Origin: a virus
Taxonomy: Duplodnaviria > Caudoviricetes
Direction: 5' to 3' (one strand)
DNA length: 52,479 nucleotides
Virus record (IMG/VR): IMGVR_UViG_3300030685_000004
Coordinates: 1 to 52,479 of that record
Of the stretch, positions 8,281 through 40,693 are shown piece by piece. Within the stretch, counting starts at the first letter, position 1; the number at the start of each line of letters is the position of its first letter. Position numbers and translations under genes: made by a program. The notes under the pieces are model-generated. The model worked only from the letters and a program-made list of their open reading frames with translations, did no database searches and was not told the origin of the DNA.

Positions 8281-8308
8281 TCGCGAGAATAACATAGGTT
8301 ATAATGAA
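8281..8308 (+). promoter_or_regulatory. Phage promoter repeat P1
   Basis: TCGCGA-gaata-ACAT-aggt-TATAAT-GAA. Confidence 0.85.
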
Positions 8309-8652: not shown

Positions 8653-8680
8653 TCGCACAAATTACACAGCCTATAATGAA
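8653..8680 (+). promoter_or_regulatory. Phage promoter repeat P2
   Basis: TCGCAC-aaatt-ACAC-agcc-TATAAT-GAA. Confidence 0.85.
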
Positions 8681-8810: not shown

Positions 8811-8838
8811 TCGCACAATTTACACACCCTATAATGAA
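8811..8838 (+). promoter_or_regulatory. Phage promoter repeat P3
   Basis: TCGCAC-aattt-ACAC-accc-TATAAT-GAA. Confidence 0.85.
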
Positions 8839-8969: not shown

Positions 8970-8997
8970 TCGCATAGATTACATATAGTATAATGAA
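8970..8997 (+). promoter_or_regulatory. Phage promoter repeat P4
   Basis: TCGCAT-agatt-ACAT-atag-TATAAT-GAA. Confidence 0.85.
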
Positions 8998-9268: not shown

Positions 9269-9296
9269 TCGCGAAAATTACATATATTACAATGAA
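9269..9296 (+). promoter_or_regulatory. Phage promoter repeat P5
   Basis: TCGCGA-aaatt-ACAT-atat-TACAAT-GAA. Confidence 0.8.
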
Positions 9297-17500: not shown

Positions 17501-17528
17501 TCGCGAAGATTACACAGTATATAATGAA
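17501..17528 (+). promoter_or_regulatory. Phage promoter repeat P14
   Basis: TCGCGA-agatt-ACAC-agta-TATAAT-GAA. Confidence 0.85.
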
Positions 17529-19268: not shown

Positions 19269-19285
19269 TGAAAGGGGATATTATA

Positions 19286-19978: not shown

Positions 19979-19979
19979 T

Positions 19980-20796: not shown

Positions 20797-20816
20797 AAAG
20801 AAAAGGGGAGAGGCCC

Positions 20817-22186: not shown

Positions 22187-22313
22187 TGAAAGGGGTAGAA
22201 AAAAATGAAAAAATACGGATGTATGGCAATGTTGTTTGACCTATTTATGATATTTATAACTGGTGGTCTATGGCTCATATGGATTCTAGTTAGGTTCTTG
22301 AGGACTCACTAAA

Positions 22314-23964: not shown

Positions 23965-26900
23965 TTGGATTTTTACAAAATAAAATCAAGACCAGTTAAG
24001 CAGGGAGTCATCGAACTATCTCCTGATTTCAAAGTATGTAAATGCAAAGATTTGATGATTCGTGGTAAATCATTTTATGCAATATGGGACGAAGAAAAAG
24101 GATTATGGTCTACTGATGAATATGAAGTACAAAGATTAGTAGATGAAGAATTGATTAAAGCTAGAGATGATGAAACCAAAAATAGTGATTCAATTGTAAA
24201 AGTAAAATTGATGATGGAGTTTTCAAATAAGTCATGGGTAGAGTATAGAAACTTTATGAAAAACATATCTGACAATTCCCATCAGTTGGACACAGAATTA
24301 ACATTCCAGAATACCGAGATAAAAAAGAAAGACTATGTAAGTAAGAAGCTACCATATCCATTAGAGGAAGGAAGGTGTGATGCTTTTGATGAACTCATCG
24401 GAACCTTATATGACCCAGAAGAAAGAGCAAAACTCGAATGGGCAATTGGAGCAGTTATCGCAGGAGACGCAAAGAATATACAAAAATTTATTGTGCTCTA
24501 TGGAGAGGCGGGAGCAGGTAAATCCACAATCCTCAACATTATCCAAAAATTATTTGAAGGCTACTATACAACCTTTGAAGCAAAGGCCCTAACTACAAAT
24601 AATAATTCTTTTGCCATGGAAGTATTTAGAACAAATCCACTAGTGGCAATACAACATGATGGTGACCTCTCAAAGATTGAAGATAATACAAAACTCAATT
24701 CAATCATATCTCACGAAGAGATGACTATGAATGAGAAGTATAAGCCATCATATACATCTAGAGTTAATTGTTTTCTGTTTATGGCTACTAATAAACCAGT
24801 AAAGATAACAGATGCAAAATCAGGTATCATAAGAAGACTTATAGATGTTAAACCATCTGGTAAAAGACTTCCATCCAAGAAGTATATGGCTCTTATGTCT
24901 AAGATAGACTTTGAACTTGGAGCAATAGCACAACATTGTTTTAATGTATATAAGAATATGGGTAAGCACTATTATAATTCTTATAAACCATTAGAGATGA
25001 TGTTTCAAACTGATATGTTCTTTAATTTTGTAGAAGATAATTTCTATGAATTTAAAAAAGATGATGGTATAACCTTAAGTAGAGCATTTACCTTATACAA
25101 GGAATATTGTGAGGATTCATTGATAGATTACAAACTATCAAAGACAAAGTTTAGAGAGGAACTTAGAAATTATTTTAAATATTTCTCAGGTGGAACTGCC
25201 ATTCGTGTAAATGGGGTTATAACTAGAAATTATTATTCTGGGTTCTTAGATACCAAGTTCAATTCTGAATCAAAAAAAGAAGAGGAAATACCAAACACCC
25301 TAGTGTTAGACTCAACCGAATCCATATTTGATAAAGAGTGTTCCGAGTGCCTAGCTCAGTATGCTAATGAATATGATACTCCAAACAAAAAATGGGCAGA
25401 TGTAAAAACTAAATTAAAAGATATAGATACATCACAGGTACATTATGTTAGATTACCAGAGAATCATATTGTAGTAGACTTTGATTTAAAGGATGACAAA
25501 GGGGAGAAGTCACTAGAATTAAATACAGAAGCAGCAAGTAAATGGCCACCTACATATGCCGAGTATAGTAAGAGTCAAGCAGGAGTGCATCTTCATTATA
25601 TTTATGAAGGCGATCCAAACCAACTTAGTAGACTATATTCAGAAGGCATAGAAATCAAAGTGTTTAATGGTAATAGTTCTTTGCGAAGAAAGTTGTCTAA
25701 GTGCAACCATATTCCCATTGCTACCATAAACTCTGGATTACCACTGAAAGGAGAAAAAATGATCAACTTTGAAAGTGTAAAAAGTGAGAAAGGATTAAGA
25801 GAATTAATCAAACGAAACATGGAAAAAGAAATTCATGCTGGAACAAAACCTAGTATGGACTTCATATACAAGATATTAGAAGATGCCTATAATTCAGGTT
25901 TGGGTTATGACATTACTGATATGCGACCTAGACTATTAGCATTCGCTAGTAACAGCAGTCACCAAGCAGATTACTGTATAAAACTACTTGGTCAGATGAA
26001 ACTCAAATCTGAGGACATAAGTTCACCTTTGAATGATTATGATCCCAAAGAAGAATTAATGTTTTTCGATGTTGAAGTATTCCCTAATCTATTTGTAGTT
26101 GTTTGGAAGACCAAAGGGAAACAGGCAGTAAAGATGATCAACCCAACACCATTAGAGATAGAATCACTTCTGAAATATAGGTTAGTGGGATTCAATTGTC
26201 GTAGGTATGATAACCATATTATGTATGCTCGTTATATTGGGTACACTAATGCAGAGTTATACACCTTAAGTCAGAGGATTATATCCAATAGTCCTAATTG
26301 TATGTTTGGAGAGGCTTACAATCTATCCTATACTGATGTATATGACTTTGCATCAGCTGGTAATAAGAAGAGTCTTAAGAAATTTGAAATAGAATTAGGT
26401 ATACATCATCAAGAACTTGGACTTCCATGGGATGAGCCAGTGCCAGAAGAGCTGTGGACTAAGGTAGCAGAATATTGTGTTAATGATGTAGAGGCTACTG
26501 AAGCAGTATTTGATCATCTTGTAGGTGACTGGACAGCAAGACAGATATTAGCAGAGTTGAGTGGATTGACAGTTAATGATACAACAAATGCTCACTCTAC
26601 AAGAATCATATTTGGTACCAATAGAAAGCCACAAGATGTATTTGTGTATACTGATCTTAGTGAACAGTTTCCAGGTTATAAATTTGATTTTGGAAAGAGT
26701 ACTTATAGAGGCGAAGAGGTTAGTGAAGGTGGACATGTATATTCAGAACCAGGAATGTATACTAAGGTAGCCCTACTAGATGTGGCATCAATGCATCCAT
26801 CAAGTATTGAGTTACTAGATATGTTTGGCCCATATACTAAAAAATTCTCCGAAATCAAGAAAGCAAGACTGGCAATTAAACATGACAACTATGAAGCTGC

Positions 26901-27894
26901 TAGTAAAATGTTGGATGGTAAGCTAGCTAAATTCTTGAACAATCCTAATTACAAATCTGATGATTTATCAAATGCTTTGAAGACAGTAATCAATTCAGTA
27001 TATGGATTAACCTCAGCTAAATTTGAGAATGCTTTCAGAGACCCAAGAAACATAGATAATATAGTAGCCAAAAGAGGAGCTCTCTTTATGGTAGACCTCA
27101 AATATGCAGTACAAGAAAAAGGATTTACTGTAGCACATATTAAGACAGACTCCATAAAGATACCAAATGCAACTGAGGAAATTATTCAGTTTGTTATGGA
27201 CTTTGGACTCAAATATGGGTATGACTTCGAACATGAAGCTACCTATGAAAAGATGTGTTTAGTTAATGATGCTGTATATATTGCTAAATATGACAGTAAG
27301 GGTTTAATAGGTAAAGGTGGGAAACATGCTGGTGAGTGGACAGCTACAGGAGCACAGTTTATTCAGCCATATGTATTTAAATCATTGTTTAGTAAAGAAC
27401 TATTAACTTTTGCGGATACCTGTGAAACAAAATCTGTAACTACAGCCTTATATTTAGATATGAATGAAGACCTACCACCAGAAGAACATAAATATCACTT
27501 TGTAGGAAAGGTTGGGTCGTTCTGTCCAATCAAACCAGGAAAGGGTGGTGGTATATTACTAAGAGAAAAAGAAGGAAATTATCATGCAGCAAGTGGTAGT
27601 AAAGGATTTAGATGGCTTGAAGCAGAGATGGTTCATATTCTTAATAAAGAAGCAGACATCGATCATGCATATTATAATAAGTTGGTTGATGATGCATTAA
27701 CTAATATATCCAACTTTGGTGATACTGAATGGTTTATATATAGTGAGTCACCTAAACCAAGAAATTTATGTTCAACCCCATGTGGAAAAAATAATGATAC
27801 TCTTTGTGAAAGTTGTAATAACTTATCAGAAGAAGAGGATATCTTATTATGTAAACTTGGTTCACATTTTAAACCAACACTATTACCATTTTGA
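23965..27894 (+). CDS. Fused SF3 helicase - primase(AEP-like) - 3'-5' exonuclease - family B DNA polymerase
   Basis: Walker A GEAGAGKS and ATNK; DFDLKD and SKSQAGVHLHY; exonuclease FFDVEVF/GFNCRRYD/YCVNDV; PolB LDVASMHPS, K...NSVYG, IKTDS; TTG start with AAGGAGG RBS. Confidence 0.9.
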   Translation: MDFYKIKSRPVKQGVIELSPDFKVCKCKDLMIRGKSFYAIWDEEKGLWSTDEYEVQRLVDEELIKARDDETKNSDSIVKVKLMMEFSNKSWVEYRNFMKNISDNSHQLDTELTFQNTEIKKKDYVSKKLPYPLEEGRCDAFDELIGTLYDPEERAKLEWAIGAVIAGDAKNIQKFIVLYGEAGAGKSTILNIIQKLFEGYYTTFEAKALTTNNNSFAMEVFRTNPLVAIQHDGDLSKIEDNTKLNSIISHEEMTMNEKYKPSYTSRVNCFLFMATNKPVKITDAKSGIIRRLIDVKPSGKRLPSKKYMALMSKIDFELGAIAQHCFNVYKNMGKHYYNSYKPLEMMFQTDMFFNFVEDNFYEFKKDDGITLSRAFTLYKEYCEDSLIDYKLSKTKFREELRNYFKYFSGGTAIRVNGVITRNYYSGFLDTKFNSESKKEEEIPNTLVLDSTESIFDKECSECLAQYANEYDTPNKKWADVKTKLKDIDTSQVHYVRLPENHIVVDFDLKDDKGEKSLELNTEAASKWPPTYAEYSKSQAGVHLHYIYEGDPNQLSRLYSEGIEIKVFNGNSSLRRKLSKCNHIPIATINSGLPLKGEKMINFESVKSEKGLRELIKRNMEKEIHAGTKPSMDFIYKILEDAYNSGLGYDITDMRPRLLAFASNSSHQADYCIKLLGQMKLKSEDISSPLNDYDPKEELMFFDVEVFPNLFVVVWKTKGKQAVKMINPTPLEIESLLKYRLVGFNCRRYDNHIMYARYIGYTNAELYTLSQRIISNSPNCMFGEAYNLSYTDVYDFASAGNKKSLKKFEIELGIHHQELGLPWDEPVPEELWTKVAEYCVNDVEATEAVFDHLVGDWTARQILAELSGLTVNDTTNAHSTRIIFGTNRKPQDVFVYTDLSEQFPGYKFDFGKSTYRGEEVSEGGHVYSEPGMYTKVALLDVASMHPSSIELLDMFGPYTKKFSEIKKARLAIKHDNYEAASKMLDGKLAKFLNNPNYKSDDLSNALKTVINSVYGLTSAKFENAFRDPRNIDNIVAKRGALFMVDLKYAVQEKGFTVAHIKTDSIKIPNATEEIIQFVMDFGLKYGYDFEHEATYEKMCLVNDAVYIAKYDSKGLIGKGGKHAGEWTATGAQFIQPYVFKSLFSKELLTFADTCETKSVTTALYLDMNEDLPPEEHKYHFVGKVGSFCPIKPGKGGGILLREKEGNYHAASGSKGFRWLEAEMVHILNKEADIDHAYYNKLVDDALTNISNFGDTEWFIYSESPKPRNLCSTPCGKNNDTLCESCNNLSEEEDILLCKLGSHFKPTLLPF

Positions 27895-28502: not shown

Positions 28503-29709
28503 TCTTCGAGACTATCAGATAGAAGCAATTGATAAACTAAAGTCAGGCTCCATCCTTTGTGGTGGGGTCGGCTCTGGTAAATCGAGAACTGCCATAGCTT
28601 ATTATTTTCTGAAAGAATGTAAAGGTACTATGAATGTAAATGGTGTTGGGGAATTCTCTCCCATGACAAAACCAAAAGACCTTTATATCATTACAACAGC
28701 TAAGAAAAGAGATACTTTAGAATGGGAAGGGGAATGTACTCCTTTCCTTATATCAACAAAGAAAGATTGTGGTATGAGTACAGTCATCGTTGACTCATGG
28801 AATAATATATCAAAGTATATCAAAGTTAGGAATGCATTCTTTATATTTGATGAACAGCGATTAGTTGGTTCAGGCACCTGGGTCAAATCATTCTTAAAGA
28901 TAGTAAAGAACAATAATTGGATTCTTCTTAGTGCTACACCAGGTGATACTTGGACCGACTATATTCCTGTCTTCATAGCTAATAAGTTCTATAAGAACCG
29001 TACTGAGTTTCTTAGGCGACACGCCGTATATAATCGATTTACAAAATATCCAAAGATAGAGAGCTTTATGGAGCAAGGTCACCTTAGCCGATTAAGAGAA
29101 CAGATAACCATAAGAATGGAATATACCAAACAAACAATTGCAATTGATAAAACTATAAATGTTCCATTTAAAAAAGAACCTCTTGACACAGTTCTCCTTA
29201 AACGATGGAACCCATATACTGAGAAACCAATCAAGTCCATCAGTGAAGTATGCTATCTAATGAGAAAGGTGGTTAATAGTGATCCGTCTAGGTTGGAAGA
29301 AATAACTAAGATAATCAAGGAGCATCCGAAAGTAATCATATTCTATAATTTTGATTATGAGTTGTCTATGCTTAAAGAATTAGGTGACACATTAAAAATA
29401 TCAACCAGTGAATGGAATGGACATGCCCATCAAGAGATTCCAAAAACTAAATCATGGATATATTTAGTTCAGTATACAGCGGGTGCAGAGGGTTGGAATT
29501 GTATAGAGACAGACACAATCATATTCTACTCACAAAACTATTCATACAAGACCATGGTTCAGGCAGCGGGACGAATCGACCGTCTTAATACACCATTCAC
29601 ATACTTGTATTACTATCATATTAAGTCAAACTCAATAATAGACCTAGCAATAGCAAGGGCATTAAAAAATAAAAAGAATTTCAACATACATCGTTTTATA
29701 GATTCTTAA
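28495..29709 (+). CDS. SF2 (SNF2-like) DNA helicase
   Basis: LRDYQ, GGVGSGKS, FDEQ, SATPG, EGWN and QAAGRIDR motifs. Confidence 0.9.
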   Translation: MISLRDYQIEAIDKLKSGSILCGGVGSGKSRTAIAYYFLKECKGTMNVNGVGEFSPMTKPKDLYIITTAKKRDTLEWEGECTPFLISTKKDCGMSTVIVDSWNNISKYIKVRNAFFIFDEQRLVGSGTWVKSFLKIVKNNNWILLSATPGDTWTDYIPVFIANKFYKNRTEFLRRHAVYNRFTKYPKIESFMEQGHLSRLREQITIRMEYTKQTIAIDKTINVPFKKEPLDTVLLKRWNPYTEKPIKSISEVCYLMRKVVNSDPSRLEEITKIIKEHPKVIIFYNFDYELSMLKELGDTLKISTSEWNGHAHQEIPKTKSWIYLVQYTAGAEGWNCIETDTIIFYSQNYSYKTMVQAAGRIDRLNTPFTYLYYYHIKSNSIIDLAIARALKNKKNFNIHRFIDS

Positions 29710-29711
29710 CC

Positions 29712-29739
29712 TCGCGAAAATAACATATACTATAATAGA
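29712..29739 (+). promoter_or_regulatory. Phage promoter repeat P15 (upstream of the nuclease-RNA polymerase operon)
   Basis: TCGCGA-aaata-ACAT-atac-TATAAT-AGA. Confidence 0.85.
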
Positions 29740-29790
29740 GGGATAGAATAAGCCCATCTTATTATTTTGTTTTTGCAAAGGAGATAATCC

Positions 29791-30102
29791 ATGTTAGAAA
29801 GTAAGTTCCAATCTAAGTTAATTGATGAACTTGAATTCCTATTTAAAGGATGTATAATTCTAAAAAATGATGCTAATTACATTCAAGGCTTTCCTGATTT
29901 ATTAATACTATATAATAATACCTGGGCTGCTCTAGAATGTAAACAAAATTCTAAATCCAGCTATCAACCTAACCAAGAATACTATCTTGGAGTACTGGAT
30001 AAGATGTCCTATGCTAGTGCAATATGGCCTGAGATAAAGGAGGAAGTAATAAATGAACTTCAACACACATTTCGAACTAGCAGGTCAACATGCATTCCTT
30101 AG
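29791..30102 (+). CDS. VRR-NUC / Holliday junction resolvase-like PD-(D/E)xK nuclease
   Basis: 'LESKFQ', 'GFPDLLI', 'ALECK', 'PNQ'. Confidence 0.8.
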   Translation: MLESKFQSKLIDELEFLFKGCIILKNDANYIQGFPDLLILYNNTWAALECKQNSKSSYQPNQEYYLGVLDKMSYASAIWPEIKEEVINELQHTFRTSRSTCIP

Positions 30103-30622
30103 TGCATCCAAATATCATTGGGTGAACTATGATGAAGAGAAACTTGCATCTACTTACTCTAAATTTTTAGCAACTATGCAGGGAACTAGATTGCATGAGT
30201 TTGCTAGTGAGTGTATAAAATTAGGAATCAAACTTCCTAAATCAAAGAAGACAATGAACCTTTATGTAAATGATGCTATAGGTTATAAGATGGCAACAGA
30301 ACAACCTTTGTATTATTCAGAGAATTGTTTTGGCACAGCGGATGCCATATCCTATAGACAAAACTTGCTTAGAATTCATGATTTAAAAACTGGAATTACT
30401 CCAGCATCTATGAGACAACTAGAAGTATATACTGCTTTATTCTGTTTAGAATACAAGATAGACCCAACTTCTATAGATACAGAATTAAGATTATACCAAA
30501 TGGATGAGGTTCTAATTCATACCCCACCAACAGAAGATATCCTACATATCATGGACAAAATTATAGTATTCGACCAAAAGATTACTAAATTAAAGATTGG
30601 AGGAGAATATGATTATCTATAA
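30053..30622 (+). CDS. PD-(D/E)xK exonuclease-like protein (Cas4/DUF2800-like)
   Basis: 'LSAS', 'GTRLH', 'FGTADAI', 'IHDLKTG', 'QLEVY'. Confidence 0.8.
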   Translation: MNFNTHFELAGQHAFLSASKYHWVNYDEEKLASTYSKFLATMQGTRLHEFASECIKLGIKLPKSKKTMNLYVNDAIGYKMATEQPLYYSENCFGTADAISYRQNLLRIHDLKTGITPASMRQLEVYTALFCLEYKIDPTSIDTELRLYQMDEVLIHTPPTEDILHIMDKIIVFDQKITKLKIGGEYDYL

Positions 30623-33521
30623 TGAACTAAGTCATATTGGCACTGGCACCTCTGGTCGATATCCAAAAGGGTCAGGACAAATGCCACAAAGAAGTAAAAC
30701 ACTACTAACTCAAATAGAAGAATTGAAAAAACAAGGTATGACTGATAATGAAATAGCAACAGGATTAGGCATGAACTCTAACCAATATAGACAAAGAAGA
30801 TCAATTGCCAACGCTGACCAGAAAATAGCAGATGCTCATAAAGCTATGATGTTAGAACAAAAGGGATATAGTAATGTTAAGATTGGTGAAATCATGGGTA
30901 GAAATGAATCATCAATTCGAGATTTATTAAAACCAGGTGTTTTAGAAAAAGCCAGTACAATTAGAAACATATCTAATATGTTGAAAGATGAACTAGACAC
31001 AAAACCTGGTTATGTTGATATTGGTGTTCAAACAGAACAATATATTGGTATTAAAAGAACTCAACTTAAAACAGCTGTTAGATTACTAGAAGAAGAAGGG
31101 TATGTAACACATGAAATTCCAATTGACCAACAAGGTACTGGTAAAATAACAACTATGTTAGTAGTTGCTAAACCAGGAACTACATGGGCAGAAGTTATGA
31201 ACAACAAAGATAAAATTCACATGATTAATGATAAATATTCTGAAGATGGTGGTCGAACTATTCTTGGAATTGAGACCCCTAATAGTATAAGTTCCAAACG
31301 AGTTAAAATAAACTATGCGGATGATGGTAGTGGCGGAAAAGAAATGGATGGTGTTATCCAATTAAGAATGGGTGTTCCTGAATTATCTTTAGGGAGTAAG
31401 CGATATGCTCAAGTTCGTATAGCTGTAGATGATACTCATTACTTAAAAGGTATGGCTATATATACTGATAAACTCCCTCCAGGAATTGATGTAATGTATA
31501 ACTCCAATAAATCAAAAACTACACCAGCTAGTAAAGTGTTTAAATCAATGGCCGATGAGAAAACTGGATTAATAGATCCTGATAACCCATTTGGTGCAAC
31601 CATTAGACAAAAACATTTTGTAACTGAAGAAGGTAAAAAAACACCAGGTTCAGGTAAAATGTTAGAATTAAAGAATGAAGGTAAATCTTATTCTGAAATA
31701 GCTAAAATAATGAAAATACCAGAAGATTTGGTTAAAAAAAGTGTAAAGGTAAGTGCCTTAAATATAGTTAATGAAGAAGGCGATTGGGAAAAATGGTCTA
31801 AAAATATATCATCTCAGATGTTATCTAAACAAACCCCAGATCTTGCCAAACAACAACTCGGATTAGCTTATGCCTCTAAGAAAAAAGAATTTGATGAAAT
31901 TATGACTCTGACTAATCCAACTGTTAGAAAAAAACTACTTGATGGCTTTTCTGATGATTGTGATTCAGCAGCTGTACATCTAAAAGCAGCGGCTCTACCA
32001 AGACAAGGGTCAAGAGTTATATTACCAATTCCAAGTATGAAGGATACAGAGATATATGCTCCAACCTATCGAAATGGGGAAAAAGTAGTTCTTGTTAGAT
32101 ATCCACATGGTGGTATATTTGAAATACCAGAACTAACAGTTAACAATCAGCAACCAATTGCTAAAAAACTTCATGGAAAACTAATTGATGCTGTTGGTAT
32201 ACATCCTAAAGTAGCTGAAAGATTGTCAGGAGCAGATTTTGATGGTGATACTGTTTTAGTTATTCCTAATAGAGGAAGAAATGGTAAACCATTAATAAGA
32301 ACTGAACCAGCTCTTAAACAACTTGAGGATTTCGATCCAAAAGCATTATACAAATTACCTGACTCAGCACCAAAAATGTCATCTCGTACTAAAGGTATTG
32401 AAATGGGAAATGTTTCTAATCTTATTACAGATATGACTATTAAGGGTGCAAAAAATGAGGAAATAGTTAGAGCCGTTAAACATAGCATGGTTGTAATCGA
32501 TGCTGAAAAACATCATTTAGATTATAAACAATCAGCTATTGATAATGGTATTGCTGCTTTAAAAAAGACTTATCAAGGTGGTGCAATAAGAGGAGCTTCT
32601 ACCTTAATATCCAAAGCCTCTTCTGATTATAGAGTTGATGATCGAGTAATTGGAACCGGTAATGGTATTATTAATCCCAAAACAGGTAAAGAAAAGAGAA
32701 TATATATTGACCCTGTTACAGGAAATAAATTATATACAAATACAGGAAAGTCCTATATCAAGAAAACTGTAACTATAACCGATCCAGAAACAGGAAAGAA
32801 GAAAATACTTAGTGTATATAATGCTCTTGTTAAAAAGGCATTGTTAGAGAATCCTAATCTGCCTATTAAAGAAACAGTTGTCACGAAAACAATCAAGTCT
32901 ACTAAGATGGCAGAAGCAAAAGATGCATTTGAGTTATCATCTGGAACTACTATGGAAACGGTATATGCTGAGCATGCAAACAAATTAAAAGCATTAGCAA
33001 ATGAGTCAAGGAAAGCATACATCAGTACCCCACCTTCTTTGTACTCCGCCTCTGCAGCAAAGACCTATGCTAAAGAAGTAGCTACACTTAATGCTAAACT
33101 AAACGTAGCGTTAAAGAATGCTCCTCTAGAGAGGAATGCAAATAGAATAGCAGGACTCAATATAGCAGCCAAGAAGGCAGCCAACCCTGACATGGAACTC
33201 AGTGAGATTAAAAAGTACAAGTATCAAGCCTTAGCAGAAGCAAGAGCTAGAATGGGTGCGAAAAAAGATCCTGTCGAGATAACAAATAAAGAATGGGAAG
33301 CTATACAAGCAGGTGCTGTTAGTAATAACACATTAAGTCAGATACTTAACAATGCTAGCCCTGATTTAGTTAAGCAATTAGCAACACCTAGAGTTAAACC
33401 TACAGTGACAACAGCACAAGAATCAAGGATGAAAAACTTAATTAAGAGTGGCCATACTCAAGCAGAGATAGCCGATGAATTAGGTGTATCAACTTCTACA
33501 GTATCATCATACATGAACTAA
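30609..33521 (+). CDS. Single-subunit two-barrel (double-psi beta-barrel) RNA polymerase with four HTH modules
   Basis: LSGADFDGD (ADFDGD at nt 32232-32249), VLVRYP, MDGVI, YAQVRI...LKGM and VIDAEK match motifs of the cellular RdRP/YonO-like clade; four HTH segments. Confidence 0.85.
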   Translation: MIIYNELSHIGTGTSGRYPKGSGQMPQRSKTLLTQIEELKKQGMTDNEIATGLGMNSNQYRQRRSIANADQKIADAHKAMMLEQKGYSNVKIGEIMGRNESSIRDLLKPGVLEKASTIRNISNMLKDELDTKPGYVDIGVQTEQYIGIKRTQLKTAVRLLEEEGYVTHEIPIDQQGTGKITTMLVVAKPGTTWAEVMNNKDKIHMINDKYSEDGGRTILGIETPNSISSKRVKINYADDGSGGKEMDGVIQLRMGVPELSLGSKRYAQVRIAVDDTHYLKGMAIYTDKLPPGIDVMYNSNKSKTTPASKVFKSMADEKTGLIDPDNPFGATIRQKHFVTEEGKKTPGSGKMLELKNEGKSYSEIAKIMKIPEDLVKKSVKVSALNIVNEEGDWEKWSKNISSQMLSKQTPDLAKQQLGLAYASKKKEFDEIMTLTNPTVRKKLLDGFSDDCDSAAVHLKAAALPRQGSRVILPIPSMKDTEIYAPTYRNGEKVVLVRYPHGGIFEIPELTVNNQQPIAKKLHGKLIDAVGIHPKVAERLSGADFDGDTVLVIPNRGRNGKPLIRTEPALKQLEDFDPKALYKLPDSAPKMSSRTKGIEMGNVSNLITDMTIKGAKNEEIVRAVKHSMVVIDAEKHHLDYKQSAIDNGIAALKKTYQGGAIRGASTLISKASSDYRVDDRVIGTGNGIINPKTGKEKRIYIDPVTGNKLYTNTGKSYIKKTVTITDPETGKKKILSVYNALVKKALLENPNLPIKETVVTKTIKSTKMAEAKDAFELSSGTTMETVYAEHANKLKALANESRKAYISTPPSLYSASAAKTYAKEVATLNAKLNVALKNAPLERNANRIAGLNIAAKKAANPDMELSEIKKYKYQALAEARARMGAKKDPVEITNKEWEAIQAGAVSNNTLSQILNNASPDLVKQLATPRVKPTVTTAQESRMKNLIKSGHTQAEIADELGVSTSTVSSYMN

Positions 33522-33537
33522 GAAAGGAGTAATCTTT

Positions 33538-33780
33538 ATGAAACAATCAATGTTAACTACAACCGATAATCCATTCGATCCATTCGATGATTTCGATGAA
33601 TGGTATGCCTTTGATGAATCAAAAGGTTATCATTCTCTTAGTTACTTATCTAGAATAGTAAGAACAAGTGATGAACTAAGTGAACTCGATCAGCATTTAG
33701 CAATTGAATCTGCTATTGATGACATAATTAAATTAAATCTTTTAGGAATCTATACGCGAGCAACTAAAGATGTAGAATAA
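33538..33780 (+). CDS. Conserved acidic small protein
   Basis: 'MLTTTDNPFDPFDDFDEW..FD..KGY'; RBS GAAAGGAG. Confidence 0.75.
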   Translation: MKQSMLTTTDNPFDPFDDFDEWYAFDESKGYHSLSYLSRIVRTSDELSELDQHLAIESAIDDIIKLNLLGIYTRATKDVE

Positions 33781-33860
33781 ACCAATAGTGGGGGGTCCCT
33801 CGCAAATCCTACCCCCCCTCCATATCGCGTTCGTCCTAAAAAAAGCTCCGGTGGGACATT

Positions 33861-33988
33861 TTCCTAGACCTTTTCAAGTATGGCGACGGCTTCTTTAGTC
33901 AAAAGTGGTTCATGGTGGCCATTCTCTCCCCTTTCAAGAGATGTTGATTGTCCAAAGTCGGGTCGCCATACCTGAAAGTGTCTAGGAA
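33861..33988 (+). ncRNA. Long-hairpin RNA presenting an anti-RBS loop (CCCCUUUCA)
   Basis: 27-bp outer stem with 2 mismatches (TTCCTAGAC.../...GTCTAGGAA), further inner helices, and an apical TCTCT-CCCCTTTCA-AGAGA hairpin in a non-coding gap. Confidence 0.7.
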
Positions 33989-34033
33989 CACATTAAAACT
34001 TACATAAAAGTAATAGAAAGGAGTGAACAACTG

Positions 34034-34366
34034 ATGGCCGTGTCCAAGAAAGATGATTCACCGAAACGCCAGCCTCCTGCTACTACACCAGAAGCAAGAG
34101 AAAGTCAAATGATAGCCTTTGCTGTAGACTTGGCAGAGAAACAACTTCTCAAAGGAACGGCATCGTCACAAGTTATAACTCACTTCTTAAAACTTGGTTC
34201 GACCAAAGAAAGAATTGAGAAAGAGATTCTTATGAAACAAAAAGAACTCATACAAGCCAAGACAGATGCTATTCAATCAGCAAAGAAGGTAGAAGAATTA
34301 TATGCAAATGCCCTTAATGCAATGAAATCATACAGTGGAAAAGGAGGTAATGACGATGGAGACTAG
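34034..34366 (+). CDS. Putative terminase small subunit
   Basis: Helical 110-aa protein heading the packaging module; assignment mainly positional. Confidence 0.55.
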   Translation: MAVSKKDDSPKRQPPATTPEARESQMIAFAVDLAEKQLLKGTASSQVITHFLKLGSTKERIEKEILMKQKELIQAKTDAIQSAKKVEELYANALNAMKSYSGKGGNDDGD

Positions 34367-35678
34367 TATAGACAATCCTTCTTTAGATGAACTTGCACAT
34401 CATGGTATTATGGGAATGCATTGGGGACATCATAAAGGAGAAATATCTGCATCCATCGAAAAAGCTCATGCAAATCTAAAGAGTCAAGAAAAGATTCTTA
34501 GAAAAGAGACTGAAAGGTATAATAGAGCAGGATCAACGTATGCAAGTGCATCTGATCAGAAAAGATTTGACTCAGCAATGAGAGAGTATGATTATGCTCG
34601 AACAGATTTAAAAAGTGCTAAGATTTTAGATAAAATAAATTCAAGTCCTAAATCTAAATCCCAACTTAAAGTTGAATCTAAGTATAAAGAGAAAGGTATG
34701 TCTAACGACGAAGCATCAGTGGCGGCCTATAAGCATATAAAAACTAGGAATTTATTGATAGCCGTTGGAGCCACAACAGTTGTAGCCGGAGGTGCATATC
34801 TAGCTTACAAGTATCATGATGATAGAGTCGATAAGATAATAAAAAGTGGTACCAAGTTATCGAACATATCAGCGGAGAATACCAAGGATATTCGTGATGC
34901 ATTCTACTCAACAAGAGTTGGTGAAAAGGGAAAGATACTGGATAAAATAGATAACTCTAAGTATAAAGGTATCTTTGCCAGAAATATATCTGGTTTTGGC
35001 AAAACTCCATATGATAAAGAAATTCATGTTTTAAAAGACATTAAGATGGTATCGCCAGAGAATAGTAGAAAAACAATAGCCTCACTTATTAAGACTGACC
35101 CAGATTACCATGAAAAACTAAAGTCTTACATCTTATACCAGACTGGTGATTATGTTGATAGTTGGCCTGGACTTGATAAAGTTAGAAAGAGAGCTGTTGA
35201 CGATATAGTTGATGGTAAAGTCACAAAAGATGTTTATAAAATAGTTAATATGGCAATGGCTGATCATAGACCAAATGCGGAATCAATAACCGAACCTTTT
35301 AAGAAAGCATTAAGTAAAGATGGTTATAATGCTATAAAAGATATAACCGATAACCAATTAAGTGGATTCCGAACCTTCAATCCAATTATAACATTCAACT
35401 CTAAAGGTTTGGTGGATGTAGTAGGGGTTAAAGAAGTAACAGAAGATATAATTAAAAAATCTGAGAAATTAGCATACGGGCATTTACATACGGTAGAAAA
35501 TGTTAAAGCAGGAGGTCAACTTGCGGGCATAATATTAGGGTTTACTGGTATCAATACAGGAGTCAAAGCACTAGGTAAACAATCACTGACTAGGGAAACA
35601 CTTAACTATCGTAAAGATAATCCTAATACCAAGTTATCAAACACTGAAATAACGCGTATGTTGGAAAGGAGTAGATAG
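34356..35678 (+). CDS. HxGxxGMxWG-tagged protein (440 aa) with central TM and unknown C-terminal domain
   Basis: 'DELAHHGIMGMHWG' at the N-terminus. Confidence 0.75.
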   Translation: METSIDNPSLDELAHHGIMGMHWGHHKGEISASIEKAHANLKSQEKILRKETERYNRAGSTYASASDQKRFDSAMREYDYARTDLKSAKILDKINSSPKSKSQLKVESKYKEKGMSNDEASVAAYKHIKTRNLLIAVGATTVVAGGAYLAYKYHDDRVDKIIKSGTKLSNISAENTKDIRDAFYSTRVGEKGKILDKIDNSKYKGIFARNISGFGKTPYDKEIHVLKDIKMVSPENSRKTIASLIKTDPDYHEKLKSYILYQTGDYVDSWPGLDKVRKRAVDDIVDGKVTKDVYKIVNMAMADHRPNAESITEPFKKALSKDGYNAIKDITDNQLSGFRTFNPIITFNSKGLVDVVGVKEVTEDIIKKSEKLAYGHLHTVENVKAGGQLAGIILGFTGINTGVKALGKQSLTRETLNYRKDNPNTKLSNTEITRMLERSR

Positions 35679-35679
35679 T

Positions 35680-35805
35680 ATGGATGTTAAGAAAATATTA
35701 GTAATAGGTTCACTAATTATATCAGTGTTGGTTTATAAGAACATGACTTTAAAAGTAGGACCAAGTGCTCCAGAGATGGAATATATATTAAACCATAAGA
35801 AATGA
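35680..35805 (+). CDS. 41-aa single-TM microprotein (not in ORF track)
   Basis: RBS GAAAGGAG; ATGA overlap with the HNH gene. Confidence 0.5.
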   Translation: MDVKKILVIGSLIISVLVYKNMTLKVGPSAPEMEYILNHKK

Positions 35806-36209
35806 AGACCTATTCAGAATTAAAAAAACTTAATTCCTTTGATGAACGATACCAATACTTAAGACTTAAGGGTAAGGTTGGAGAAACTACATTTGGATTT
35901 GACCGATACCTAAATCAAATTCTATACACATCCAAAAGATGGAAACGAACTAGAAATGATATAATCATAAGAGATAACGGATGTGACTTAGGCATAGAAG
36001 GACAAGAGATTCATAGGCATATACTAGTTCATCACATGAATCCAATAAGTATAGAAGATGTTGAACTTGATAGAGATATTCTATACGATCAAAAGTTTTT
36101 AATCTGTACTACATTCAGAACACATAATGCCATACACTATGGTGATCCATCACTACTACCACAAACCCCAAATGAGAGATGCCAAAACGATACTTGTCCT
36201 TGGCGTTAA
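35802..36209 (+). CDS. HNH endonuclease (terminase-associated)
   Basis: 'W...R..II.RD.GC', 'VHHMNP', 'L.C....HN.IH'. Confidence 0.85.
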   Translation: MKTYSELKKLNSFDERYQYLRLKGKVGETTFGFDRYLNQILYTSKRWKRTRNDIIIRDNGCDLGIEGQEIHRHILVHHMNPISIEDVELDRDILYDQKFLICTTFRTHNAIHYGDPSLLPQTPNERCQNDTCPWR

Positions 36210-36225
36210 GAAAGGAGAACTTAGT

Positions 36226-36627
36226 ATGACCGATGTAATTACACCAGACCCAATTAACATGGATAGTATTCTTATATCTATTAAAAAGATGTTGGGCATA
36301 GAACCCGATATGACTAACTTTGATGTTGAAATCATAATATATATTAATTCAGTTATAATGACCCTAAATCAAATAGGCGTAACTCCGGATGGATTTATAA
36401 TCTTAAATTCAGATGATGTTTGGAACGATATGATTGGTGAACGTACTGATATAGAAGCAATTAAAACTTTTATTTACTTAAAAGTTCGTTTATTATTTGA
36501 TCCACCATCCAGTTCTTTTGTATTAGAGGCTATGAAACAACTAGCCTCAGAGATGGAGTGGCGATTAAATGTACAAGTTGAGAATAAGACTTACGTTCCA
36601 GAAGTCATAGTTCCAGAGGAGGTGTAA
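36226..36627 (+). CDS. Putative head-tail connector protein
   Basis: 'DSIL.SIKKMLG...FD..II..IN...L.Q.G', 'LKVRLLFDPP', 'E.EWRL'. Confidence 0.65.
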   Translation: MTDVITPDPINMDSILISIKKMLGIEPDMTNFDVEIIIYINSVIMTLNQIGVTPDGFIILNSDDVWNDMIGERTDIEAIKTFIYLKVRLLFDPPSSSFVLEAMKQLASEMEWRLNVQVENKTYVPEVIVPEEV

Positions 36628-36628
36628 A

Positions 36629-37489
36629 ATGAGAGATAATGAGTATCTAGAGCATCATGGTGTTATGGGAATGAAGTGGGGACATACAAGCGGGAGTATT
36701 GAAAAAACTGCATATTCAGTAGGAGCAAAAATTAATCCTCGAGAACTAAAATACAAAGTTCATAAGATGACAACTAAAGTAAATGACGATACAAAATTAT
36801 TAGCAGATCTTACTAAAGCATCTAGTAAAGAATCCGGTGTTCTTCCAAATAATAAAAATGCACTTCTAGCAATAGAAAAAGTAGGTATCAAAACTCATGC
36901 TAAAACAGTGTATGATAATTTGGATAAACAAGATATTCTTAATTTAAAGACTTATACTGACTCGGCTAGGTATTCTAGAAGTGTTAATAATTATCTAGCA
37001 ATAGGAACACCTAAAGAGATTGCAGCAGAAGCAGCAAAGTTAAAACAAACACTTGGAAAGAATGCAATAAACGATGTTACAGTGTATCGAAGTTGTAATT
37101 TTAAATTTTCCATAAATGGCGTAGCGAAAAAACTAGATACGATGTCTGAAGAAGAACTACAAAATAACATTTCATTACTTTCTAAAAACTTCAGTGGAAA
37201 ATCGCTAAAAGAAAATAGAGTTTTCTCGACAAGTACATCTCCTTTATTTGCAATAGATACCTGGAGAGCAGTTAATCCAACAGCAGCTTCAACCTACAAT
37301 ACATATATGATTATTAATTGTAAGGGAACACCTGGAGTCTTAGCCGATGGTAAAACAAATGATGGAAAATCTCTTGTTAATACAAGAAGTAATCAAGAGG
37401 GCATATTAGCCCCAAATAAGTTAACTTATAAGAAATTAGAGTTTGATAGTGAACGCAAAATGTTTGCTATAACAGTAGATGCCACTTAA
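36629..37489 (+). CDS. HxGxxGMKWG-tagged ADP-ribosyltransferase (VIP2/C3-like, R-S-E class)
   Basis: 'LKTYT...Y..VNNYL', 'VYRS', 'FSTSTS', 'NQEGIL'. Confidence 0.75.
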   Translation: MRDNEYLEHHGVMGMKWGHTSGSIEKTAYSVGAKINPRELKYKVHKMTTKVNDDTKLLADLTKASSKESGVLPNNKNALLAIEKVGIKTHAKTVYDNLDKQDILNLKTYTDSARYSRSVNNYLAIGTPKEIAAEAAKLKQTLGKNAINDVTVYRSCNFKFSINGVAKKLDTMSEEELQNNISLLSKNFSGKSLKENRVFSTSTSPLFAIDTWRAVNPTAASTYNTYMIINCKGTPGVLADGKTNDGKSLVNTRSNQEGILAPNKLTYKKLEFDSERKMFAITVDAT

Positions 37490-37515
37490 AACATAAGGAT
37501 AGAGGTGATAATAAA

Positions 37516-37998
37516 ATGGATAAAGACTATCAAAATTTTGTAGGAAGAATGGGAAGTTTTGACGATACACTAGAGGTTGAAACTGATTTTGTAAAGCATT
37601 ATGGTAAGATAGGTATGCATTGGGGACGTAGATCAGGCAGATCAGGGACTCTTAGTAAAAAAATGGGAGCCAAGTTATCAGAAATGAAAACTCACTCTAC
37701 TGATAGCGAAGATTTTAAACAAAAACAGACACTTAAAACTAAGAAAATTAGAGAAATGTCTAATGCCGATCTTCAGACTCTAAATACTAGACTTCAGTTA
37801 GAAAGATCATATAAAGATTTAAGTAAACAGGATATGTCAGCTGGTAGAAAATATGCCAATGATGTCCTAGTTAATTCTTCCAAGCAAGCTCTTAGTAATG
37901 TGGTAATTAAGGGTATGTCAGCTGGATTAGACTCGTTATTAAAAAAAGCCATAAAACCAAAAGGTCCTGTTCAACTAAGTTTCGTTAAAGGTATGTAA
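37516..37998 (+). CDS. HxGxxGMxWG-tagged protein
   Basis: 'FVKHYGKIGMHWGRR', 'MSNADLQ..N.RLQLE..Y'. Confidence 0.75.
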   Translation: MDKDYQNFVGRMGSFDDTLEVETDFVKHYGKIGMHWGRRSGRSGTLSKKMGAKLSEMKTHSTDSEDFKQKQTLKTKKIREMSNADLQTLNTRLQLERSYKDLSKQDMSAGRKYANDVLVNSSKQALSNVVIKGMSAGLDSLLKKAIKPKGPVQLSFVKGM

Positions 37999-39744: not shown

Positions 39745-39755
39745 GGGGGTGCAAA

Positions 39756-40235: not shown

Positions 40236-40255
40236 ACTAGACAGGAGGTGAAATA

Positions 40256-40660: not shown

Positions 40661-40693
40661 TTAAAACTAACATGTAGGCCAGGAGGTGAAATA

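What the first reader, a model, noticed from the sequence alone, without database searches (positions are those of the whole stretch)
30609..33521. Phage-encoded single-chain two-barrel RNA polymerase with built-in sigma-like HTH modules
Seen: LSGADFDGD catalytic loop, upstream RYP, and DG, QVR...KG and VIDAEK motifs in the order found in cellular RdRP/YonO-like double-psi beta-barrel polymerases. Four HTH segments are present (KQGMTDNEIATGLGM; QKGYSNVKIGEIMGRNESSIR; EGKSYSEIAKIMKI; SGHTQAEIADELGVSTSTVS), so automated annotation could call it only an HTH protein. Inference: a DNA-dependent RNAP that reads promoters itself without a sigma factor. From memory, not verified, homologues occur in phages with the same gene order, but I know of no biochemical characterisation.
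Basis: partly seen in the sequence, partly recalled or inferred. Interest (0 to 1): 0.85.

Follow-up and report, generated by a model that had tools for sequence, protein, structure and literature searches.

The report
Phage two-barrel RNA polymerase with promoters
This phage gene encodes a compact one-chain relative of the cellular RNA polymerase core with DNA-binding modules attached; the family was already predicted by computer but never tested at the bench, and it travels with a conserved promoter-like DNA signal that it probably reads.

Summary
ORF 30609-33521 (+) carries every motif and HTH segment quoted. The catalytic residues are invariant in 121 aligned homologues. An AlphaFold model (pLDDT 91.5) matches QDE-1 and RDR2 two-barrel polymerases best.

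It is not new. It is a full-length member of PHROG 4291. The same HTH-flanked "putative RNA polymerase" was described in 2021 (bioRxiv 10.1101/842583). This scan has reported the family on other DNA. I found no biochemical test in print.

- The window's 15 promoter-like sites share TCGC-N7-ACA-N5-TATAAT, all on the + strand, against 0.08 expected.
- The motif recurs in Streptomyces and Arthrobacter phages and in 20 of 21 related uncultured phage records.
- Of 39 long records found through the motif alone, 37 encode the polymerase.
- The homologue in Lactococcus phage 1706 is labelled "structural protein" by its depositors.

Best reading: a DNA-dependent phage transcriptase that finds these promoters through its own HTH modules and may be carried in the virion. 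"Sigma-like" is not shown, and one of the four HTHs is a lineage-specific insert.

The parts
30609..33521 (+). Gene for the single-chain two-barrel RNA polymerase homologue (970 aa from ATG 30609; 974 aa if read from TTG 30597)
   Evidence: ORF. PHROG 4291, E 0, 1166 bits, residues 8-973 on profile positions 9-905 of 909; model and fold match.
30621..30689 (+). Conserved, disordered N-terminal peptide (residues 9-31; family consensus L-x-H-Y-G-T-P-R-x-S-G-R-Y-P-W-G-S-G-x-x-P-Q)
   Evidence: H13 in 117/121; G15, S19 and G20 in 121/121; R21 120; Y22 115; G25 and G27 120; residues 1-32 have pLDDT < 50; same motif in the loci translated there.
30702..30764 (+). HTH-like unit 1 (residues 36-56)
   Evidence: helices 36-45, 50-56, 61-88. 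Occupied in 121/121 of A1. Pfam only weak.
30873..30929 (+). HTH-like unit 2 (residues 93-111)
   Evidence: helices 93-100, 104-111, 113-135. Occupied in 121/121. No Pfam HTH hit.
31011..31169 (+). Helix-plus-beta-hairpin domain (residues 139-191), possibly winged-helix-like
   Evidence: secondary structure; only weak winged-helix matches (RTP E 0.06; TFIIE-alpha E 0.12, probability 0.96).
31302..31502 (+). First (beta-like) barrel region with D251-G252, Q272-V-R274 and K284-G285. Boundaries are approximate, taken from the strand pattern.
31629..31745 (+). HTH unit 3 (residues 345-383), a lineage-specific insertion
   Evidence: present in 3 of 121; absent from phage 1706 orf75. Sigma70_r4_2 E 8.8e-4, below cut-off.
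32007..32267 (+). Second (beta-prime-like) barrel region with R501-Y-P503 and the metal-binding loop. Boundaries are approximate.
   Evidence: this stretch is the one that aligns in register with YonO's R-x-P-H ... D-x-D-G-D.
32223..32249 (+). Catalytic loop LSGADFDGD (residues 543-551)
   Evidence: S544, G545, A546, D547, D549, G550 and D551 in 121/121.
32493..32513 (+). VIDAEKH motif (residues 633-639)
   Evidence: D635, K638 and H639 in 121/121.
33411..33515 (+). C-terminal HTH (residues 939-973), the only one over Pfam cut-offs
8281..8305 (+). Promoter-like site 1 (TCGC-N7-ACA-N5-TATAAT)
8653..8677 (+). Promoter-like site 2
8811..8835 (+). Promoter-like site 3
8970..8994 (+). Promoter-like site 4
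9269..9293 (+). Promoter-like site 5 (TACAAT variant)
9769..9793 (+). Promoter-like site 6
10051..10075 (+). Promoter-like site 7 (best score)
10445..10469 (+). Promoter-like site 8
10830..10854 (+). Promoter-like site 9
11134..11158 (+). Promoter-like site 10, directly before a tRNA-like hairpin RNA
11249..11273 (+). Promoter-like site 11
11526..11550 (+). Promoter-like site 12 (TCGT variant). ARAGORN's tRNA-like gene starts 2 nt after its TATAAT.
12705..12729 (+). Promoter-like site 13
17501..17525 (+). Promoter-like site 14, ahead of the replication module
29712..29736 (+). Promoter-like site 15, between helicase and endonuclease, about 870 nt upstream of the polymerase gene. No further site follows through the late genes.
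   Evidence: no + strand terminator-like site in 29000-38000.

Best explanation
[quoted passage not shown] It serves as the phage's own transcriptase.

Shown here:
- The fold class and the invariant catalytic set: D251, R274 and K284 in the first barrel; R501, P503 and D547-x-D549-G-D551 in the second.
- The family's size and conserved gene position.
- A tight two-way association between the family and a promoter-like motif, TCGC-N7-ACA-N5-TATA(A/G)T-G.

Inferred:
- The enzyme finds these sites by itself, through its fused HTH and winged-helix-like modules. The three conserved blocks lie about 10 bp apart, so they face one side of the helix and could each be read by one module.
- It melts the AT-rich TATAAT block and starts at or just after it.
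- From the 15 sites it transcribes the short early cassettes (8.3-12.7 kb), the replication module (from 17.5 kb), and, from the site at 29.7 kb, its own gene and probably the late genes behind it.

Probable but less sure (about even odds):
- Copies of the enzyme are packed in the virion and enter with the DNA, so that early transcription needs no host polymerase.
For: Identity:
- PHROG 4291, E 0, full length.
- AlphaFold2 model with 121-sequence alignment: pLDDT 91.5, pTM 0.85.
- Foldseek against PDB: QDE-1 chains E 2.8e-8 to 2.4e-7, probability 1.00; maize RDR2 5.7e-5; Arabidopsis RDR2 2.1e-4; then beta-prime chains at E about 0.03.
- Foldseek against BFVD: phage 'RNA dependent RNA polymerase' models E 1.8e-10 and 7.4e-8.
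- Catalytic residues invariant in 121 of 121, D251 in 119 of 121.
- Print: HHpred 95.68% to PF05183, DxDGD and terminal HTHs reported for this protein family (bioRxiv 10.1101/842583, passages read).
- YonO, another single-chain member, is a processive DNA-dependent RNAP that transcribes SPbeta late genes (PMC5467207, passages read).

Promoter link:
- 15 matches to TCGC-N7-ACA-N5-TATAAT with up to 1 mismatch, all on the + strand. Expected 0.08 +/- 0.31; 0 of 100 shuffles reached 15.
- A PWM scan gave the same 15 sites, with the next score far below.
- Same motif in Streptomyces phage Scap1 (61% GC) and Arthrobacter phage Circum (6 sites on +, 0 on -, in 16 kb).
- A TTACA-N5-TATAATGAAAG form occurs 12 times in Lactococcus phage P162.
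- Of the 80 loci, all 21 on contigs >= 40 kb were scanned with TCGC-N15-TATRRT, and 20 of 21 records matched. That gave 104 matches on the polymerase's strand, 4 on the other strand, and 11 for the back-to-front control on both strands together. ACA appeared at the unspecified positions.
- Per-genome consensus is the same from 36 to 61% GC.
All 40 of the 80 listed rows on contigs >= 40 kb were tested. 39 were held, and 37 of 39 encode the polymerase, 27 of 28 among records >= 90% complete. One of the 39 was already in the first set.
- The same letters with the spacing 2 nt too long gave only 10 stretches, and 0 of 10 encode the polymerase, though those records are fragments.
- Only 5 of the 15 sites have a -35-like hexamer, at a long 18-nt spacing. 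Sigma-70-type matches in 8-18 kb are not above shuffles (51 against 46.6 +/- 5.6).

Virion idea:
- Phage 1706 orf75 is a full-length homologue (36% identity, E 3e-177). The depositors' record EU081845 calls it 'structural protein'.
- 1706 orf7, also 'structural protein', carries two DUF7211-like tags.
- The N-terminal 32 residues are disordered yet nearly invariant.
- The gene lies next to the head module, which is the right genome end in relatives.
Against: - No activity, template or start-site data exist for any member that I could find. No RNA run was available.
- Direct sequence kinship to the one characterised enzyme is not demonstrable here. The family profile against YonO alone gave hhalign probability 0.7%. 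Against a 24-sequence YonO alignment it gave 2.85%, although the aligned stretch is the right barrel in register.
- Pfam PF05183 (RdRP) does not hit this protein, and NCBIfam has no model for the core.
- The sites contain a perfect sigma-A -10 hexamer. 5 of 15 have TTGCCT, TTGACT or TTCACT 18 nt upstream. Hairpin-plus-T terminator-like sites are enriched between them (15 against 3.3 +/- 2.0). Host polymerase could therefore read them.
- All motif-bearing phages belong to one supercluster, so co-occurrence of motif and polymerase may partly be shared descent rather than function.
- Exceptions: 1 of 21 polymerase-encoding records (G005) and phage P162 lack the TCGC-N15 form. 2 of 39 motif-bearing records show no polymerase.
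- The N-terminal domain resembles no sigma or other solved protein at E <= 0.001.
- On the virion idea: I could not read the 2008 paper behind the 'structural protein' label. The RefSeq copy relabels the gene as RdRP. This protein's N-terminus does not hit DUF7211. hhalign against the window's tags gives 19.7%. Only 2 of 21 relatives give sub-threshold half-matches.
Confidence: 0.6

Rival explanations
1. YonO-style division of labour. The host sigma-A polymerase reads all 15 TATAAT sites. The conserved TCGC and ACA blocks are an operator for some phage regulator, or simply inherited. The phage polymerase is made in the middle of infection, is not in the virion, and reads one or a few different late promoters that cannot be found by repetition.
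For: - Perfect TATAAT at the sites; TTGnCT 18 nt upstream at 5 of 15; enriched intrinsic-terminator-like hairpins.
- YonO transcribes only the late operon, from a single start site (PMC5467207).
- The polymerase gene lies directly upstream of the late genes.
- The site at 29712-29736 is the weakest of the 15 (score 16.9).
Against: - Host sigma does not explain TCGC and ACA being kept from 36 to 61% GC and in phages of both Actinomycetota and Bacillota hosts.
- No second repeated motif was seen. No + strand terminator separates site 15 from the late genes.
- It leaves the 'structural protein' label of 1706 orf75 unexplained.
- ARAGORN's tRNA-like gene starts 2 nt after a TATAAT. That is closer than the roughly 6-8 nt usual for sigma-70 promoters (established knowledge), which is a weak point against it.
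Confidence: 0.27
2. The enzyme is not the phage's transcriptase. It would be an RNA-dependent or untemplated RNA polymerase, or a primer or small-RNA synthase, for example for replication priming or for countering host defence. The HTH modules would only tether it to DNA.
For: - The nearest solved folds are RNA-dependent enzymes, QDE-1 and RDR2.
- The database name is 'RNA-dependent RNA polymerase'.
- The gene sits at the end of the replication and recombination module.
Against: - The replicase next door already has its own primase domain (PMC12205980 abstract).
- YonO, from the same single-chain branch, is DNA-dependent.
- Three or four DNA-binding modules and a co-travelling promoter-like motif fit transcription of DNA.
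- The 'RdRP' name comes from distant similarity only.
Confidence: 0.08
3. An HTH transcription regulator whose polymerase core is a catalytically dead relic.
For: Many records annotate it only as an HTH DNA-binding protein.
Against: All metal-binding and basic active-site residues are invariant across 121 sequences that are otherwise about 50% identical. That is not expected of a dead site.
Confidence: 0.02

Closest known systems
The same family as already catalogued: PHROG 4291 ('RNA-dependent RNA polymerase'). This is the 'HTH domain-containing protein / putative RNA polymerase' signature gene of the actinobacteriophage supercluster plus Lactococcus and Faecalibacterium phages (bioRxiv 10.1101/842583), and includes Lactococcus phage 1706 orf75.
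   Same: Full-length profile match. 36% identity over the whole length to 1706 orf75. HTHs at both ends, DxDGD loop, and the same neighbours and genome position.
   Different: This lineage has an extra internal HTH (residues 345-383; 3 of 121 sequences). The paper says nothing on promoters or on virion location: the word 'promoter' occurs 0 times and 'transcri' 0 times.
YonO of Bacillus phage SPbeta (PMC5467207)
   Same: Single-chain two-barrel enzyme of similar size (839 aa against 970 aa) in a siphophage. R-x-P-H and D-x-D-G-D align in register. Its gene lies just upstream of the late operon it transcribes.
   Different: No significant sequence or profile similarity. YonO has no fused HTH modules that I saw, and no NCBIfam hits. 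Its promoter determinants are unknown and a single start site is known. The present family has a many-copy motif.
QDE-1 (Neurospora) and plant RDR2, cellular RNA-dependent RNA polymerases
   Same: Best structural matches, probability 1.00. Same two-barrel active site.
   Different: 10-12% identity, TM-score only 0.22-0.28 over the whole chain. Eukaryotic silencing enzymes without HTH modules.
Virion RNA polymerases of phages: crAss-like phi14:2 gp66 and the tape-measure-fused RNAP of Thermus phage P23-45 (abstracts seen in the listing); N4 vRNAP (recalled)
   Same: These are two-barrel enzymes, except N4, that are packed in the particle and transcribe early genes from phage-specific promoters. 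That is the working model proposed here.
   Different: Those enzymes are far larger or are fused to structural proteins. Virion location is measured for them. Here it rests on one depositor's label for a homologue.

Membership tests
Two-double-psi-beta-barrel RNA polymerase superfamily | D-x-D-G-D metal-binding loop with an R-x-P a few dozen residues upstream (beta-prime-like barrel) | tested here: met
   R501-Y-P503 and D547-F-D549-G-D551. R, P and the three D are in 121/121.
Two-double-psi-beta-barrel RNA polymerase superfamily | Second barrel supplying one acidic and two basic residues. These complete the 'eight invariant' residues of PMC2919709 (passages read). | tested here: met
   D251 (119/121), R274 and K284 (121/121) lie N-terminal to the DxDGD barrel, as in QDE-1's order D709, R738, K743 ... 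R962, P964, D1007-1011. The equivalence is by motif order, not by residue-level superposition.
Two-double-psi-beta-barrel RNA polymerase superfamily | Overall fold like solved members | tested here: met
   Foldseek against PDB: QDE-1 E 2.8e-8, RDR2 5.7e-5 and 2.1e-4, all probability 1.00; beta-prime chains follow weakly. VIA-align libraries were not available.
Two-double-psi-beta-barrel RNA polymerase superfamily | Template-dependent NTP polymerisation | not testable with these tools
   Needs purified protein.
PHROG 4291 / HTH-flanked signature polymerase of the actinophage-Lactococcus-Faecalibacterium supercluster | Full-length profile match | tested here: met
   E 0, 1166 bits, residues 8-973 on profile positions 9-905 of 909. 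249 of 250 phage records matched over at least 80% of the length.
PHROG 4291 / HTH-flanked signature polymerase of the actinophage-Lactococcus-Faecalibacterium supercluster | Conserved position: after helicase, endonuclease and exonuclease; before a small conserved ORF and the genome end or head module | tested here: met
   Window; P162; Scap1; 1706.
YonO family proper (SPbeta-like) | Detectable sequence homology to YonO | tested here: not met
   hhalign probability 0.7% against YonO alone and 2.85% against a 24-sequence YonO alignment.
Pfam PF05183 (RdRP) | HMM match over the gathering score | tested here: not met
   No PF05183 among the Pfam hits listed at E <= 1: 34 families, best 25 shown, all 25 below E 0.04. 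The HHpred match with a family alignment (95.68%) is from print only.
Sigma-70-like promoter-recognition modules | Domains homologous to sigma regions 2 to 4 | tested here: inconclusive
   C-terminal HTH: Sigma70_r4_2 at 37.8 bits (cut-off 25.7), but only profile positions 26-47 of 54, among many generic HTH hits. The N-terminal domain model found no sigma. No region 2-like part was seen.
Virion-packaged phage RNA polymerases | Protein present in purified particles | not testable with these tools
   Indirect only: the 1706 homologue is labelled 'structural protein' in EU081845. The source paper is not held.
Pfam PF23847 (DUF7211) N-terminal tag | HMM match at the N-terminus | tested here: not met
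   No hit for residues 5-44 at E <= 10. In 2 of 21 related records there were sub-threshold matches to HMM positions 3/4-12/13 only, on the polymerase N-terminus. hhalign against the window's tags gave 19.7%.

The most novel reading that the evidence does not exclude
The polymerase is loaded into the capsid through its invariant, disordered N-terminal peptide, a half-relative of the DUF7211 tags on the head-module proteins. It is injected with the DNA and then runs the phage's whole transcription programme from a single promoter class. Its tandem HTH and winged-helix modules would act as a built-in initiation factor, reading three blocks (TCGC, ACA, TATAAT) one helical turn apart, with initiation right after the TATAAT. 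That would make this very large siphophage supercluster independent of the host RNA polymerase. The enzyme would be the smallest self-sufficient, promoter-specific two-barrel transcription machine known.
Probability: 0.35. Interest if true: 0.8.

Novelty: new member of a known kind. Interest (0 to 1): 0.55.

Why it matters
The family is very large. At least 7,998 clusters at 90% identity were scored (capped), and 1,925 clusters at 50% identity had E <= 0.001. It is the signature gene of phages of Arthrobacter, Gordonia, Streptomyces, Lactococcus and gut bacteria.

It is still labelled 'HTH DNA-binding protein' or 'RNA-dependent RNA polymerase'. A 2026 paper (passage read) still treats that label as a feature typical of RNA viruses.

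If the enzyme reads the 25-nt motif by itself, it would be a roughly 110-kDa one-chain model for how a two-barrel polymerase can recognise promoters without sigma or TFIIB. It would also be a candidate orthogonal transcription tool and a key to the gene-expression programme of hundreds of sequenced phages. The motif now gives bench workers defined templates to test.

Tried and rejected
- Near-identical DNA in the phage collection: none.
- phmmer and profile search of PDB sequences: only HTH-type and chance hits, no polymerase.
- hhalign of the family against YonO, alone and as a family: not significant. I therefore do not file it as a YonO family member.
- N-terminal domain refolded alone (pLDDT 90.2) and searched in PDB: nothing at E <= 0.001. 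I therefore dropped 'sigma-like'.
- DUF7211 at this protein's N-terminus: no hit. Comparison with a small HMM of the window's own tags is weak. I keep 'same tag' only as a possibility.
- Sequencing runs: no RNA holder was listed.
None holds 'DUF7211'. None holds both 'Arthrobacter phage' and 'TATAAT'. The '1706' plus 'orf75' search gave only unrelated herpesvirus and phage papers. The library lacks most subscription journals. A test or a motif report could therefore exist unseen.
- Considered and rejected: a dead polymerase core, because the active-site residues are invariant.
- Not run: complex prediction, because no defined partner for the N-terminal peptide could be named. Also protein-atlas search, the listing of cluster members, the look-up of encoding contigs and build_rna_model.

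Full report
WHAT IS THERE

The window is a complete 52,479-bp virus record with a 127-bp terminal repeat. All long ORFs are on the + strand. The finding's ORF runs from 30597 (TTG) or 30609 (ATG) to 33521. A database gene call of 946 aa (P0002) starts 28 codons later and would cut off a conserved N-terminus. Residue numbers below refer to the 974-aa translation P0001.

FAMILY AND CONSERVATION

- PHROGs gives a full-length match to phrog_4291, 'RNA-dependent RNA polymerase' (E 0, 1166 bits).
- Pfam sees only HTH families, chiefly at the C-terminal HTH, plus two weak sub-threshold hits elsewhere.
- NCBIfam has no model for the core.
- tblastn against 50,697 phage records finds 250 records, 249 of them over at least 80% of the length and all below 60% identity. 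They are Arthrobacter 95, Gordonia 55, Streptomyces 54, Lactococcus 13, Faecalibacterium 2 and others. The feature names vary: 'helix-turn-helix DNA-binding domain protein', 'RNA-dependent RNA polymerase', 'hypothetical protein'.
- The large protein searches give at least 7,998 clusters at 90% identity (capped) and 1,925 clusters at 50% identity with E <= 0.001, of which 858 have E <= 1e-30.
- In an alignment of 121 members (A1), these residues are invariant: G252, Q272, R274, K284, G285, R501, P503, S544-G-A-D547, D549-G-D551, D635, K638, H639. D251 is D in 119.

This is the residue set that Ruprich-Robert and Thuriaux describe as common to all two-barrel polymerases: four Asp, three Lys/Arg and one Pro (PMC2919709, passages read).

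FOLD

AlphaFold2 with A1 gives mean pLDDT 91.5 and pTM 0.85. Only residues 1-32 are disordered. Foldseek results:
- PDB: QDE-1 chains rank first (E 2.8e-8 to 2.4e-7, probability 1.00). Then come QDE-1 of Thielavia, maize RDR2 (5.7e-5) and Arabidopsis RDR2 (2.1e-4). Bacterial, archaeal, eukaryotic and viral largest-subunit chains follow at E about 0.03-0.1.
- Whole-chain TM-scores are low (0.22-0.28), as expected for a shared core in otherwise different proteins.
- BFVD: the best hits are phage proteins named RNA-dependent RNA polymerase. Weaker hits include crAss-like phage pieces and LEF-9.
- The two VIA-align libraries were unavailable.

The fold is there.

RELATION TO YonO

YonO was taken from the SPbeta record. 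The family profile finds neither YonO alone (probability 0.7%) nor a 24-sequence YonO alignment (2.85%). The one aligned stretch is nonetheless the DxDGD barrel, with R-x-P-H and D-x-D-G-D in register. I therefore place the protein in the same superfamily branch as YonO and QDE-1 but not in the YonO family.

THE HTH MODULES

- The model shows four three-helix units (36-88, 93-135, 352-382, 939-973) and a helix-plus-hairpin domain (139-191).
- Only the last unit passes Pfam cut-offs. The third is sub-threshold, the first weak, and the second has no HTH hit.
- The third unit is an insertion found in 3 of 121 sequences and is missing from phage 1706.
- A separate model of residues 33-240 (pLDDT 90.2) has no PDB match at E <= 0.001. 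The best are winged-helix proteins: RTP at 0.06 and TFIIE-alpha at 0.12.

DNA-binding modules are plausible. 'Sigma-like' is not shown.

PRIOR KNOWLEDGE

- Koert et al. (bioRxiv 10.1101/842583, passages read) describe this protein as a signature gene of an actinophage supercluster plus Lactococcus and Faecalibacterium phages. They report HTHs at both ends, an HHpred match to PF05183 and the DxDGD loop, and suggest RNA polymerase activity.
- The 2010 review lists Lactococcus phage 1706 among the YonO-like groups.
- I found no bench work. Recent Streptomyces phage papers merely repeat the RdRP label.
- This scan has also reported the family on other DNA several times.

The finding is therefore a new member of a known, uncharacterised kind.

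THE PROMOTER-LIKE MOTIF

- A k-mer count and a PWM scan of the window give exactly 15 sites, all on the + strand.
- With the pattern TCGC-N7-ACA-N5-TATAAT and up to one mismatch there are 15 matches against 0.08 +/- 0.31 expected.
- Thirteen sites lie at 8.3-12.7 kb before short genes or RNAs. One (17501) is before the replication module. One (29712) lies between helicase and endonuclease, about 870 nt before the polymerase gene. None lies in the late genes.
- If TATAAT were a -10 element, the three conserved blocks would centre at about -29.5, -19 and -9.5, that is, one helical turn apart.

THE MOTIF FOLLOWS THE POLYMERASE

- Streptomyces phage Scap1 (61% GC) has TCGCAAG..TTACA.....TATAGTGAGACCCC in its early region: six copies by eye, four by the strict pattern.
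- Arthrobacter phage Circum has six copies on + and none on - in 16 kb.
- Lactococcus phage P162 has twelve copies of a TTTTACAyrCCCTATAATGAAAGG form without the TCGC block.
- From polymerase to motif: among the 80 IMG/VR loci that encode the polymerase, I scanned all 21 on contigs >= 40 kb with the loose pattern TCGC-N15-TATRRT. 20 of 21 records matched. There were 104 matches on the polymerase's strand, 4 on the other strand, and 11 for the reversed-pattern control on both strands together. ACA appeared at the unspecified positions.
- Consensus sequences from genomes of 36-61% GC agree.
All 40 listed rows on contigs >= 40 kb were tested. 39 were held and 37 encode the polymerase. One of these records was already in the first set.
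- My first attempt had the spacing 2 nt too long. It returned only 10 stretches, none with the polymerase, though those records are 2-60% complete.

HOW TO READ THIS

The motif is under selection in phages whose hosts span two phyla. Only its TATAAT block corresponds to what primary sigma factors recognise. A conserved phage-encoded reader is therefore the simplest explanation. Among the genes conserved across the supercluster, I saw HTH modules only on the polymerase.

This is an inference. All these phages share ancestry, so co-occurrence is not independent evidence of function, and a host-polymerase reading remains possible. In its favour are the perfect -10 hexamer, a TTGnCT-type hexamer 18 nt upstream at 5 of 15 sites, and enriched terminator-like hairpins at 15 against 3.3 +/- 2.0. 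Against it, sigma-70-type matches are not enriched (51 against 46.6 +/- 5.6).

One small point bears on the start site. ARAGORN calls a tRNA-like gene that starts 2 nt after the TATAAT of site 12. A second tRNA-like hairpin starts 3-6 nt after that of site 10. If both RNAs are made whole, transcription starts right after the TATAAT, closer than is usual for sigma-70 promoters (established knowledge).

IS IT IN THE VIRION?

I checked this.
- In EU081845, the depositors' record of Lactococcus phage 1706, orf75 (52082-55171) is 'structural protein'. It is a full-length homologue (36% identity, E 3e-177), including the N-terminal LQHYGTKRHSGRYPWGSG.
- The RefSeq copy renames it RdRP. The 2008 paper is not held, so I cannot say what the label rests on.
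- orf7 of 1706, also 'structural protein' and lying between connector and terminase, carries two DUF7211-like tags.
- In the window, six head-module genes carry DUF7211 (PF23847) tags. The domain occurs in 19 of 21 related records and in 0 of 14 control genomes.
- The polymerase's own N-terminus is disordered yet nearly invariant. It shares only the opening L-x-H-Y-G with the tag. Pfam does not hit it here, hhalign gives 19.7%, and two relatives give sub-threshold half-matches.

Virion carriage would also resolve a logical point. The polymerase gene itself lies behind a site of the same class (29712), so if only the phage enzyme read these sites, some enzyme would have to arrive with the DNA. 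I rate virion carriage at about even odds.

CONTEXT

- Upstream lie a helicase-primase-PolB replicase (phrog_4210, E 0), a single-strand annealing protein, a helicase, an endonuclease and an exonuclease.
- Downstream lie two small conserved ORFs, then HNH, connector, tagged proteins, large terminase, portal, a protease-capsid fusion and the major tail protein.
- In P162, Scap1 and 1706 the linear genome ends fall just after the polymerase and its small downstream ORF. The window is therefore a circular permutation. The GC-rich 254-nt gap at 33781-34033 is the likely cos region.
- No + strand terminator-like site lies between site 15 and 38 kb. That fits one long transcript through the polymerase gene into the late genes once the genome is circular.

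VERDICT

The family is known but untested. The conserved motif and the virion lead make it directly testable.

Noticed in passing
window 23965-27894 (+): The 1309-aa ORF is a full-length match to phrog_4210 (E 0) with primase, helicase and PolB parts. Its counterpart in Lactococcus phage 1706, GP55, was characterised in 2025 as a 'four-in-one replicase' (PMC12205980, abstract and passages).
   Followed up: partly
window 34335-41194 (+): Six genes around the terminase start with Pfam DUF7211 (PF23847) tags, two of them in tandem. The domain is in 19 of 21 related phage records and in 0 of 14 control genomes. No paper in the library holds the name.
   Followed up: partly
window 33781-34033: A GC-rich non-coding gap (GGGGGGTCCCTCGCAAATCCTACCCCCCCTCC ...) lies just after the polymerase's small downstream ORF. 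In relatives the linear genome ends fall at this place, so it is probably the cos region. The 127-bp terminal repeat of the record would then be an assembly overlap of a circular map.
   Followed up: partly
window 11552-11624 and about 11159-11240 (+): ARAGORN calls one tRNA-like gene of undetermined identity (11552-11624). A second T-arm-like hairpin (GTGGGTTCGAATCCCAC) lies at 11213-11229. Each sits directly behind one of the 15 promoter-like sites.
   Followed up: partly
window 30597-30680: A database gene call for this protein (946 aa; P0002) starts at an internal Met. It omits the conserved N-terminal peptide that is aligned in 121 of 121 homologues.
   Followed up: yes
window 8000-18000: Terminator-like hairpins with T-runs are enriched (15 against 3.3 +/- 2.0). 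Several run straight into the next promoter-like site, giving self-contained cassettes.
   Followed up: partly
window 8319-22553 (+): TTGAAAGGGG occurs 11 times just ahead of early and middle genes, apparently as an unusual ribosome-binding site.
   Followed up: no
L002 (Lactococcus phage P162) 23-46.5 kb: P162's version of the motif lacks the TCGC block and adds a conserved GAAAGGATATAGGTA after TATAAT. This could serve to test whether motif changes track changes in the polymerase's HTH helices.
   Followed up: no
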